Shown here one piece after another: positions 52,445-55,400 of a stretch of DNA of 64,000 bases. Source of the stretch: Escherichia coli (GTDB lineage: Bacteria; Pseudomonadota; Gammaproteobacteria; Enterobacterales; Enterobacteriaceae). Made by a program: the position numbers. Positions within the stretch are counted from its first letter, which is position 1; each line of letters opens with the position of its first letter. Location: the NCBI RefSeq assembly GCF_965641715.1, contig NZ_OZ282453.1. One strand, written 5' to 3'.

Positions 52445-55400
52445 TACGGTTCAGGCACAGGTTTGTAGGCCTGATAAGACGCGTAAGCGTCGCATCAGGC
52501 AATGGTACTCGGATGCCGGATGCGGCGTGAACGCCTTATCCGGCCTACGAGATGAAGCGATGTTTTGGCCTTACGCGACCTTTTTTGCACGCTCTTCACG
52601 GCGTGCCAAATATTCAGCCACTGTTTCAATCCGTCCCAATTCTTCCTGGGTGCGCATGTTGTTTTCAACTTCCCAAAGATCAACTGCTGCCTGGAGGTTT
52701 AGCCAAAAATCGACTGTGGTATCAAAAACTTTCGCCAGACGGAATGCCATCTCAGTGGTGAGTTTACGATTGTTATTGATCAGTGCACTGACGCTATTAC
52801 GATGAACATGCAGCAACTCTGCTAACTCATTGATTTTCAAATCTAGCGGTTCCAGATATTCATAGAGAAGAATATCTCCGGGTGTCGTCGGTTTTCTTGT
52901 TGCCTGTTTCATAGTTTTTAACTGTTGCTTCCCTGTGAATAGCGATACAAGAACATACTGAATCATACAAACACATTAAACAAGTCCCCAACTCCATTTG
53001 CGCCATCCCTCCCCGCGCGCTAGCATGATATTTCACAAAGGGAGGTCGTATGGATCTGTTGTACCGGGTAAAAACGCTTTGGGCCGCGCTGCGCGGTAAT
53101 CATTACTCCTGGCCTGCCATCGATATCACCCTCCCCGGCAATCGCCATTTTCATCTGATTGGCAGTATTCATATGGGTAGCCACGATATGGCTCCCCTGC
53201 CCGCCCGTTTGCTCAAAAAGCTCAAAAACGCCGATGCGCTGATCGTCGAGGCGGATGTTTCCACCAGCGATACGCCTTTTGCTAATTTGCCTGCCTGCGA
53301 GGCGCTGGAAGAGCGTATTAGCGAGGAGCAATTACAAAATCTGCAGCACATTAGCCAGGAGATGGGCATTTCTCCCTCACTCTTTTCTACCCAACCGCTG
53401 TGGCAAATCGCGATGGTTCTTCAGGCGACGCAGGCACAAAAACTGGGGCTGCGGGCAGAATACGGTATCGATTACCAGCTATTGCAGGCGGCGAAGCAAC
53501 AACATAAACCCGTGATTGAACTGGAAGGGGCGGAAAACCAGATTGCCATGTTGCTCCAGCTCCCTGACAAAGGACTGGCGCTGCTGGACGATACGCTGAC
53601 CCACTGGCATACCAACGCACGGTTGCTGCAACAAATGATGAGCTGGTGGCTGAATGCGCTGCCGCAAAATAATGAAATAACGCTGCCCAATACGTTCAGT
53701 CAGTCGCTGTACGATGTGCTGATGCATCAGCGAAATCTCGCCTGGCGGGATAAATTACGCGCCATGCCGCCGGGGCGATATGTGGTCGCGGTCGGTGCAC
53801 TACACCTGTATGGAGAAGGGAATTTGCCGCAAATGTTGCGCTAAAAAAATGGCCAATATCGCTATTGGCCCGTCAAAGAGGAATTTCATTTTTTTATTAT
53901 TATGCCGTCACTTTAAGCGACGGTGTAACTCGATTGTCGCTCAATCTCACCATCCTGCCAATACTCTTAGGCAAGATGACTCTTTTTTTTGGACCGCCAT
54001 CAGGCGTATGCTTGCTTCGTTTTTTTGTTTAAGGCAGGAAAATTACCATGACACCCGCAGTTAAATTACTCGAAAAAAACAAGATTTCGTTTCAAATCCA
54101 TACCTACGAGCACGATTCGGCTGAAACCAATTTTGGCGATGAAGTCGTCAAAAAATTAGGTTTGAATCCGGATCAGGTCTACAAAACGTTACTGGTGGCA
54201 GTGAACGGTGATATGAAACATCTGGCAGTGGCCGTTACGCCGGTCGCAGGTCAACTGGATCTTAAAAAAGTAGCAAAAGCGCTGGGTGCCAAGAAAGTTG
54301 AGATGGCCGATCCGATGGTCGCGCAGCGTTCGACGGGATACCTGGTTGGGGGGATTAGCCCACTGGGGCAGAAAAAACGTCTGCCAACGATTATCGACGC
54401 CCCCGCACAAGAATTTGCCACTATTTATGTTTCCGGCGGCAAGCGCGGACTGGATATCGAACTGGCGGCAGGCGATCTGGCGAAGATCCTCGATGCCAAA
54501 TTTGCTGATATCGCCCGCCGCGATTAAGCATTGTGCCGGATGCGAACATCCGGCACTTTCGGATTACTGCCAGCTCACCTCACCTTTCGGTTCATAAACA
54601 CTCACATCCAGCGGCGAGCTTTTCTGGATATACGCTTTCAGCACTTCGGCATCAATAAAGCCGGTATTCACATAGCCCGGTTTGTTATCAAGGCGCGGAT
54701 ATCCATCACCGCCGGTGGCATTGAAGTTTAATGTCGCCATACGGTAAGTTTTCGCTGGATCGACCGGTTCGCCTTTGATTTTAAGGTCGTTCAGTTTGCC
54801 GTCTTTCGCCACAAAGCTAACGTTGGCAAATTGCGGGTAGGCACCTGAATCTGGCTTCATCTGCGCGACGGCGGTCAGGTAATCAATCACCTCTTTACCG
54901 GTCATGTCGGCATACACCACCACATTGCCGAATGGCTGCACTTTCAGCACGTTTTTATAGCTGATATCGCCTGCTTCGATAGAATCACGAATTCCGCCTC
55001 CGCTCATCACCGCAAAGTCGGCACCAGTGCGATCCATTTGTGCTGCCAGAATTAACCGCCCCATATTGGTCTGTACAAAACGCACTTTGTCACGATCGCC
55101 TTCCAGACGACCATTGGTTTCGCCTATTTTCACTTCCAGCTGCGCTTTGCCTTTGTTCTGGAACGGCGATAACAGCGAGATCATTTGCTGGTTTTCAGCG
55201 ATTTCAGGGGTGTACAGCACGCGCTCGCTTTTCCCGTCTTCCCAGGTCACTTTCTTCTTCAGGTTCACCGGAATCAGCTGGTAGTTAACCATTTTCATTT
55301 CGCCATTACGAAACTCAAAATCAGCCCGTCCCACGTATTTGCCCCACTCATGCGCCTGCACAATCCAGATGCCGTTTTGTTGATCCGGTTTGCATGGCGT

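What the first reader, a model, noticed from the sequence alone, without database searches (positions are those of the whole stretch)
53843..53926. ChiX small RNA between ybaP and ybaK, invisible to the ORF track
The minus-strand sequence matches ChiX as I recall it, including the terminator hairpin and U-tail. It is a known sRNA regulating chitobiose/chitoporin genes. I include it because it is the only identified non-coding gene in the window and because the hairpin could be mistaken for a ybaP terminator.
Basis: partly seen in the sequence, partly recalled or inferred. Interest (0 to 1): 0.3.

Follow-up and report, generated by a model that had tools for sequence, protein, structure and literature searches.

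The report
ChiX small RNA gene, confirmed

Summary
The finding is correct and already known. Window 53843-53926 (minus strand) is the chiX gene (also called sroB, micM, rybC). Rfam's sroB model (RF00368) matches exactly these coordinates over its full length at 82.1 bits, against a threshold of 44. The 84 nt and about 80 bp on each side are identical to E. coli K-12 MG1655 chiX (b4585). It lies between ybaK and ybaP, and its last two bases overlap the ybaP stop codon. All functional parts are present:
- a sigma-70-type promoter (TTGGCA, 17-bp spacer, GACAAT) placed correctly for the first base of the RNA;
- a 5' hairpin;
- an A-rich linker with four ARN triplets;
- a 12-nt seed perfectly complementary to the chiP ribosome-binding site and to the chbB-chbC spacer;
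- a GC-rich terminator hairpin followed by seven U.

The gene is in 5422 of 5426 complete E. coli genomes. In about 75 other Enterobacterales species it shows the same gene neighbours and compensatory changes in all seven 5'-hairpin pairs.

Two corrections. ChiX is not the only non-coding gene in the window: allZ (4463-4697) and a dinQ/AgrB-like locus (8256-8689) are also there. The window is not K-12 but another E. coli. Novelty: none. Interest: low.

The parts
53956..53961 (-). chiX promoter -35 hexamer, TTGGCA
   Evidence: Consensus scan, 9 of 12 matches with a 17-bp spacer. TTGGCAG is conserved across Enterobacteriaceae in alignment A2.
53933..53938 (-). chiX promoter -10 hexamer, GACAAT, ending 7 nt upstream of the first base of the RNA (6 bases in between)
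   Evidence: A GAnAAT box at this position is found in 58 of 77 aligned sequences (76 species plus the window).
53843..53926 (-). ChiX (SroB/MicM/RybC) small RNA, 84 nt
   Evidence: Rfam RF00368 at 82.1 bits, full length. 84 of 84 nt identical to MG1655 chiX b4585. Present in 5422 of 5426 complete E. coli genomes.
53905..53923 (-). 5' hairpin (ChiX nt 4-22)
   Evidence: MFE fold. A hairpin is kept in 87-91% of 77 sequences, with 67 distinct 5' segments, when each is folded on its own. All 7 pairs show compensatory changes and 96% of cells are paired.
53883..53904 (-). A/U-rich single-stranded linker (nt 23-44), containing four consecutive ARN triplets AAU AAU AAA AAA at nt 26-37 (window 53890-53901). 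[quoted passage not shown]
   Evidence: The triplets are read directly from the sequence. The AUAAUAAUAA block is nearly invariant in A2. ChiX is described as a class II sRNA that binds the proximal and distal faces of Hfq in PMC9068810. Binding was not tested here.
53869..53882 (-). Seed / target-pairing region (nt 45-58, UCCUCUUUGACGGG)
   Evidence: 12-nt perfect complement to chiP at -19 to -8, covering the Shine-Dalgarno sequence (nt 45-56). 12-nt perfect complement to the chbB-chbC spacer (nt 47-58). Shuffles reach this length in 2 and 1 of 2000 trials. It lies within the scan pattern, so conservation across the fetched loci says nothing.
53851..53870 (-). Rho-independent terminator stem-loop (nt 57-76, GGCCAAUAGCGAUAUUGGCC). 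Its first two G also belong to the chb-pairing stretch.
   Evidence: Terminator scan: 8 pairs, 4 of them G-C, 4-nt loop. 99.7% of cells are paired across 73 distinct sequences, and 3 pairs show compensatory changes.
53843..53849 (-). U7 tail (nt 78-84): transcript 3' end, and inferred site for the proximal face of Hfq. The last two U are templated by the AA of the ybaP stop codon.
   Evidence: T124-T129 are invariant or nearly so in A2.
53050..53844 (+). ybaP (TraB/GumN family protein), the convergent downstream neighbour. Its stop codon TAA (53842-53844) overlaps the ChiX 3' end by 2 nt.
   Evidence: ORF list, RefSeq annotations. ybaP lies convergent downstream in 75 of 77 loci, with the identical 2-nt overlap in 30.
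54048..54527 (+). ybaK (Cys-tRNA(Pro) deacylase), the divergent upstream neighbour, 121 bp from the first base of ChiX
   Evidence: ybaK lies upstream and divergent in 73 of 77 loci.

Best explanation
This is the chiX gene, which encodes an 84-nt Hfq-dependent trans-acting small RNA.

Shown here from sequence:
- It has its own sigma-70-type promoter and an intrinsic terminator on the minus strand.
- It has a 5' hairpin, an A-rich ARN linker and a U-tail.
- A single-stranded 12-14-nt seed (UCCUCUUUGACGGG) is perfectly complementary to the ribosome-binding site of chiP and to the chbB-chbC intercistronic spacer.

Taken from the literature on E. coli and Salmonella, not tested here:
- ChiX is made constitutively. 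With Hfq it pairs over the chiP Shine-Dalgarno sequence, blocks translation and promotes Rho-dependent termination, which keeps the chitoporin silent.
- When chitobiose induces the chb operon, the chbBC spacer pairs with the same seed as a decoy and triggers ChiX decay, which releases chiP.
- The chiP 5'-UTR fragment ChiZ also sponges ChiX.
- ChiX is a class II sRNA. It uses the proximal face of Hfq (U-tail) and the distal face (ARN motif), and it competes strongly for Hfq.
For: - Rfam sroB at 82.1 bits against a gathering score of 44, full length, at the finding's coordinates.
- 100% identity to MG1655 chiX b4585 and its flanks.
- Present once per genome in 5422 of 5426 complete E. coli genomes, at >=99% identity in 5011.
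- Promoter TTGGCA-17-GACAAT, placed correctly for the first base of the RNA, and a terminator flagged only on the minus strand.
- Fold z = -3.9.
- Seed complementarity of 12 contiguous nt to the chiP leader (over the Shine-Dalgarno sequence, 8-19 nt before the AUG) and to the chbB-chbC spacer; 2 and 1 of 2000 shuffles reach this length.
- 79 of 80 loci from the genome scan carry a single hit to the model. The 11 most distant ones tested pass Rfam's sroB threshold.
- Synteny: ybaK, chiX, ybaP in 73-75 of 77 loci.
- Covariation: 98.2% of cells paired against 22-47% in slid controls, 10 of 15 pairs with changes on both sides, 0 of 500 shuffles as high.
- An alignment-independent hairpin test agrees.
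- Mechanism from the literature: PMC4098024, PMC7815308, PMC9068810.
Against: Nothing contradicts the identification. The limits are these:
- Expression, Hfq binding and regulation were not measured in this strain.
- The chiP and chb target sequences were taken from MG1655, not from the genome the window comes from. The window is a different E. coli, about 98.5% identical to MG1655.
- The covariation alignment was fitted to the model structure, which favours pairing.
- The genome scan required an exact match to the seed, so seed conservation across those loci is circular.
Confidence: 0.98

Rival explanations
1. The hairpin and its flanks are only the 3' end of ybaP (its terminator or 3' UTR), and no independent RNA gene exists here.
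For: The hairpin starts 7 nt after the ybaP stop codon. PGAP genomes annotate nothing but ybaP and ybaK here. A RIL-seq annotation scheme labelled the locus ybaP.EST3UTR before reassigning it to ChiX.
Against: The U-tract is on the minus strand only. On the plus strand the hairpin is followed by CGUCAAAGAGG, and the scan does not call a terminator there. A conserved promoter sits at the right distance upstream on the minus strand. The 5' hairpin covaries in the minus-strand register, and a seed matching chiP and chb lies between the two hairpins. MG1655 annotates an ncRNA here.
Confidence: 0.01
2. The transcript encodes a small protein starting at the AUG at nt 38-40 (MKFLFDGPIAILAIFF...).
For: An AUG lies in the linker, and the reading frame stays open to the 3' end of the RNA (read from the sequence).
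Against: There is no stop codon inside the transcript and no Shine-Dalgarno sequence upstream, only an A-run. The AUG is not conserved: it is AAG or GAA in Serratia, AAC in Pantoea, CUG in Phytobacter and UAC in Buttiauxella. Conservation follows RNA structure, through compensatory pairs, rather than codon positions.
Confidence: 0.005
3. Besides its trans-acting role, the locus works as a cis-antisense pair. ybaP transcripts that read through the hairpin would be fully complementary to ChiX and could sponge it, or convergent transcription could interfere with either gene.
For: There is no plus-strand U-tract until about 53982-53990 and 54015-54026, beyond the chiX promoter. The 2-nt overlap between the ybaP stop codon and the ChiX 3' end is identical in 30 loci, and the gap is 5 nt or less in 43 of 75.
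Against: This is purely structural inference. Hairpins flanked by an A-tract and a U-tract often terminate in both directions. No paper found links ybaP to ChiX function. In 10 loci the gap is more than 30 nt, so the overlap is not required.
Confidence: 0.08

Closest known systems
ChiX (SroB / MicM / RybC), E. coli K-12 b4585; Rfam RF00368
   Same: Everything tested: 84 of 84 nt, both flanks, promoter, both hairpins, seed, U-tail and synteny.
   Different: Nothing in the gene itself. The host genome is not K-12: it is about 98.5% identical in the shared parts, has extra islands and lacks rhsD.
Other class II Hfq-dependent sRNAs (for example CyaR, named with ChiX in PMC9068810; MgrR from my own knowledge)
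   Same: Same architecture: an ARN-rich stretch for the distal face of Hfq plus a terminator with a U-tail for the proximal face, acting as constitutive 'silencers'.
   Different: Unrelated sequences, seeds and regulons. They are not members of RF00368.
sRNAs controlled by decoy or sponge RNAs (for example GcvB-SroC; RybB with FtsO, RbsZ and the 3'ETS-leuZ fragment)
   Same: The activity of the sRNA is set by a target-derived RNA that pairs with the seed and triggers decay. For ChiX these are the chbBC spacer and ChiZ.
   Different: Different sRNAs and different sponges. For ChiX the decoy is an intercistronic spacer of an inducible operon.

Membership tests
ChiX / sroB (Rfam RF00368) | Score at or above the curated gathering score of the covariance model, over the full length | tested here: met
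   82.1 bits against 44, model positions 1-83 of 83, E = 1.8e-10
ChiX / sroB (Rfam RF00368) | Sequence identity to the experimentally defined E. coli K-12 gene chiX (b4585) | tested here: met
   84 of 84 nt, and 250 of 250 nt including the flanks
ChiX / sroB (Rfam RF00368) | Genomic position between ybaK (divergent) and ybaP (convergent) | tested here: met
   The same arrangement is found in 73-75 of 77 Enterobacterales loci.
ChiX / sroB (Rfam RF00368) | Single-stranded seed complementary to the chiP (ybfM) ribosome-binding site | tested here: met
   ChiX nt 45-56 pairs with chiP -19 to -8 as 12 contiguous Watson-Crick pairs; 2 of 2000 shuffles do as well. The target sequence was taken from MG1655.
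ChiX / sroB (Rfam RF00368) | The same seed is complementary to the chbB-chbC intercistronic decoy | tested here: met
   ChiX nt 47-58 pairs with the spacer as 12 contiguous pairs; 1 of 2000 shuffles does as well.
ChiX / sroB (Rfam RF00368) | Two-hairpin structure (5' hairpin plus terminator) supported by covariation | tested here: met
   All 7 pairs of the 5' hairpin show compensatory changes. The terminator is 99.7% paired.
ChiX / sroB (Rfam RF00368) | Own promoter and Rho-independent terminator on the sRNA strand | tested here: met
   Consensus scan and promoter conservation. These are consensus matches, not transcription data.
ChiX / sroB (Rfam RF00368) | Accumulates as a roughly 84-nt RNA and represses chiP in vivo | not testable with these tools
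   Known for K-12 and Salmonella from the literature (PMC4098024; PMC7815308). Not measured for this strain.
Class II Hfq-dependent sRNA | ARN repeat motif (distal face) plus a 3' U-tail after a GC-rich hairpin (proximal face) | tested here: met
   AAU AAU AAA AAA at nt 26-37, and U7 at nt 78-84. This is the sequence motif only.
Class II Hfq-dependent sRNA | [quoted passage not shown] | not testable with these tools
   Reported for ChiX in PMC9068810.

The most novel reading that the evidence does not exclude
The conserved head-on arrangement, in which the ybaP stop codon overlaps the ChiX 3' end by 2 nt and the plus strand has no U-tract after the shared hairpin, could mean one of two things. 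ybaP read-through transcripts may act as a perfectly complementary cis-antisense sponge of ChiX, or the two genes may interfere with each other's transcription. Either would add an undescribed layer of ChiX control alongside the chbBC and ChiZ decoys.
Probability: 0.07. Interest if true: 0.3.

Novelty: already known. Interest (0 to 1): 0.04.

Why it matters
There is no new biology here. ChiX is one of the best-studied enterobacterial small RNAs and a textbook case of an sRNA controlled by an mRNA decoy. The practical point concerns annotation. Standard PGAP RefSeq annotation of thousands of E. coli genomes leaves this gene out, so an ORF- or PGAP-based reading would see only an empty ybaP-ybaK spacer, or would assign the hairpin to ybaP. 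A first-stage reader that recovers the gene, with exact ends, from raw sequence is working correctly.

Tried and rejected
1. RNAduplex on the full-length RNAs gave long, heavily bulged 'duplexes'. The energies, -45.6 and -38.0 kcal/mol, stood out from shuffles but are not interpretable. I replaced this with the longest contiguous complement.
2. MAFFT followed by RNAalifold on RNAs trimmed from predicted start to U-tail recovered only the near-invariant terminator. The 5' hairpins vary in length and slid out of register. I solved this in two ways: folding each 5' segment on its own, and aligning with a covariance model.
3. L064, a 'Candidatus Lindowbacteria' MAG returned by the pattern scan, is a chance match. 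It has no ybaK or ybaP, no hit to my model and no Rfam sroB hit.
4. The small-ORF reading is rejected: the AUG is not conserved and there is no stop codon in the transcript.
5. The 'ybaP terminator only' reading is rejected on the strand of the U-tract and on the conserved promoter.
6. Literature searches for a ybaP-ChiX functional link or a bidirectional terminator at this locus found nothing relevant.
7. I did not examine which positions vary in the 411 E. coli genomes at 95-99% identity.

Full report
**Observation.** The finding points to window 53843-53926, minus strand. A scan of the whole window against Rfam 15 places the family sroB (RF00368, the Rfam name for ChiX/MicM/RybC) on exactly these coordinates. 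The match covers the full model (positions 1-83 of 83) at 82.1 bits against a gathering score of 44, with E = 1.8e-10. The E. coli K-12 MG1655 record annotates chiX (b4585, 'small regulatory RNA ChiX') as an 84-nt ncRNA at 507204-507287, overlapping the end of ybaP by 2 nt and lying 121 bp from ybaK. Window 53800-54050 is identical to that MG1655 stretch at every aligned base.

**Anatomy** (all on the minus strand; RNA positions in brackets).
- Promoter: the only promoter-like site in 53600-54200 is TTGGCA (53961-53956), a 17-bp spacer, then GACAAT (53938-53933). The GACAAT box ends 7 nt before the first base of the RNA, with 6 bases in between.
- RNA: ACACCGUCGCUUAAAGUGACGGCAUAAUAAUAAAAAAAUGAAAUUCCUCUUUGACGGGCCAAUAGCGAUAUUGGCCAUUUUUUU.
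- Fold: a 5' hairpin (nt 4-22, window 53905-53923) and a terminator hairpin (nt 57-76, window 53851-53870), followed by A and U7 (nt 77-84). The MFE is -24.1 kcal/mol, z = -3.9 against dinucleotide shuffles.
- Terminator: the scan calls it on the minus strand only.
- Linker: between the hairpins lies an A/U-rich stretch with four consecutive ARN triplets, AAU AAU AAA AAA (nt 26-37).
- Seed: UCCUCUUUGACGGG (nt 45-58, window 53869-53882).

**Pairing region.** I fetched the two established partners from MG1655: the chiP leader (now also annotated as ChiZ) and the chbB-chbC spacer. ChiX nt 45-56 forms 12 contiguous Watson-Crick pairs with CGUCAAAGAGGA, 8-19 nt upstream of the chiP AUG, which covers the Shine-Dalgarno sequence. 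ChiX nt 47-58 forms 12 contiguous pairs with CCCGUCAAAGAG in the chbB-chbC spacer. Shuffled ChiX reaches 12 pairs in 2 and 1 of 2000 trials. The pairing region is intact. One caveat: the targets come from MG1655, because the window does not contain them.

**Distribution and comparative evidence.**
- The 84-nt sequence occurs once in 5422 of 5426 complete E. coli genomes, at >=99% identity in 5011.
The 80 loci it delivered come almost entirely from Enterobacterales: Escherichia, Citrobacter, Enterobacter, Klebsiella, Kluyvera, Serratia, Yersinia, Rahnella, Hafnia, Pantoea, Erwinia and Proteus.
- Of the 77 loci with enough flanking sequence, ybaP lies convergent downstream in 75 and ybaK divergent upstream in 73. 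The 2-nt overlap with the ybaP stop codon is identical in 30 loci, and the gap is 5 nt or less in 43.
- The linker and terminator are nearly invariant (the seed was fixed by the scan pattern). The 5' hairpin sequence differs widely.
- Folded one by one, with no alignment, the 38 nt upstream of the linker form a hairpin with z < -1.5 in 91% of sequences and z < -2 in 87%. There are 67 distinct segments, for example CCGUCGC/GUGACGG, CCGAAGG/CCUUCGG, CCGGGGC/ACCCCGG, UCUGGCC/GGCCAGA and GUAACCG/CGGUUGC.
- A covariance model built from ten Escherichia and Citrobacter sequences finds one hit per locus and one in the window, and none in the single non-enterobacterial locus L064.
- On the resulting alignment, 98.2% of pair cells are standard pairs, against 22-47% when the 3' partner is slid by 1-3 columns. 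Ten of 15 pairs change on both sides. All seven 5'-hairpin pairs show compensatory changes. None of 500 shuffles reaches any observed measure. The alignment was fitted to the model, so these numbers lean towards the structure. The alignment-free test gives the same answer.
- Rfam's own model scores the eleven most distant loci I tried at 49.9-81.1 bits, all above its threshold.

**Mechanism.** The sequence shows an independent transcription unit with a free seed that matches the chiP ribosome-binding site and the chb decoy, plus the two sequence features of a class II Hfq ligand: an ARN stretch, and a terminator with a U-tail. The remaining steps come from published work on E. coli and Salmonella and were not tested here.
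- ChiX continuously represses chiP, the chitoporin gene.
- Chitobiose induces the chb operon through ChbR and relief of NagC repression. The chb transcript then pairs with ChiX as a decoy and causes its rapid decay, which releases chiP (PMC4098024, citing Figueroa-Bossi 2009, Overgaard 2009, Rasmussen 2009, and Mandin and Gottesman 2009).
- ChiX pairing also increases Rho-dependent termination in chiP. The 5'-UTR fragment ChiZ in turn sponges ChiX (PMC7815308).
- ChiX binds the proximal and distal faces of Hfq and is a dominant competitor for it (PMC9068810).

**Rivals.**
- 'Just the ybaP terminator' fails on three points: the U-tract is on the minus strand only, the minus-strand promoter is conserved, and the 5' hairpin covaries in the minus-strand register.
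- 'A small ORF from the AUG at nt 38' fails on three points: the transcript contains no stop codon, there is no Shine-Dalgarno sequence, and the AUG is replaced by AAG, GAA, AAC, CUG or UAC in other genera.
- One open point concerns where ybaP transcription ends. On the plus strand the shared hairpin is followed by CGUCAAAGAGG, and the first hairpin-plus-U-run candidates lie at about 53955-53990 and 54001-54026. Read-through ybaP RNA would therefore be antisense to the whole of ChiX. I found no literature on this and rate it as a low-probability speculation.

1. ChiX is not the only non-coding gene in the window. allZ (MG1655 b4831) maps to 4463-4697 on the minus strand at 98.7% identity. An AgrB-family antisense RNA match lies at 8256-8344 on the minus strand, next to a CDS that PGAP calls dinQ. 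REP-derived naRNA4 and ES036 matches occur at several places. No tRNA genes are present.
2. The window is not K-12. It is about 98.5% identical to MG1655 in the shared parts, lacks the rhsD cluster and carries about 29 kb of extra DNA around cueR.
3. 'Invisible to the ORF track' is fair. PGAP RefSeq records list only ybaP and ybaK at this spot. The two mechanical ORFs that cross it (53780-54064 and 53865-54032, plus strand) correspond to no annotated gene in MG1655 or in the PGAP record checked.

**Verdict.** Novelty: none. Interest: low (0.04).

Noticed in passing
window 4463-4697 (-): The sRNA AllZ, derived from the allR 3' end and annotated in MG1655 as b4831, maps here at 98.7% identity (235 nt). 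It is a second annotated sRNA gene in the window.
   Followed up: partly
window 8197-9104; AgrB hit at 8256-8344 (-); dinQ-like CDS at 8534-8689 (+): A DinQ-type type I toxin locus with an AgrB-like antisense RNA (Rfam RF02891, 53.6 bits) sits where MG1655 has the rhsD cluster. The inner 27-aa ORF (8606-8689) reads MKTFLDKVLIVLKALIAQLELIRQFIE. The motifs AAAAACCGACATGACAGT (8260 and 8738) and AGTCCTCATCTAGCA (about 8332 and 8518) each occur twice, which suggests an agrA/agrB-like pair. The segment is in 1332 of 5426 complete E. coli genomes, where PGAP calls the CDS dinQ.
   Followed up: partly
window 17536-20833 and 21338-47132: About 29 kb absent from MG1655 flanks cueR (20834-21337, itself only 93.8% identical to MG1655). 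In other E. coli the matching DNA is annotated as a SiiEA/BapA-like giant adhesin, a type I secretion ATPase, a HlyD adaptor and a YadA-like protein. At least 80% of 17000-41000 is covered in 842 of 5426 genomes, and even the best-covering matches are only about 96% identical.
   Followed up: partly
window 52266-52545; also 8846-9024, 59602-59679 and 9028-9070: REP/BIME-type repeats score as Rfam naRNA4 (CssrE) and ES036. Three tandem copies with a 101-bp period lie just downstream of copA, where the MG1655 alignment suggests a shorter array.
   Followed up: no
window 54001-54026 (+): A terminator-like hairpin (CAGGCGTATGCTTG) followed by a U-rich run lies on the ybaP/ybaK strand, 22 nt upstream of the ybaK start codon and beyond the chiX promoter. 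It could be the real end of ybaP transcripts or an attenuator for ybaK.
   Followed up: no
L069:9456-9531 (-) (Proteus faecis): A clear sroB/ChiX homologue (66.4 bits) lies outside the ybaK-ybaP context that nearly all the other loci share.
   Followed up: no
E. coli genome collection: Four of 5426 complete E. coli genomes lack chiX, and in two assemblies the copy lies on a record labelled as a plasmid.
   Followed up: no
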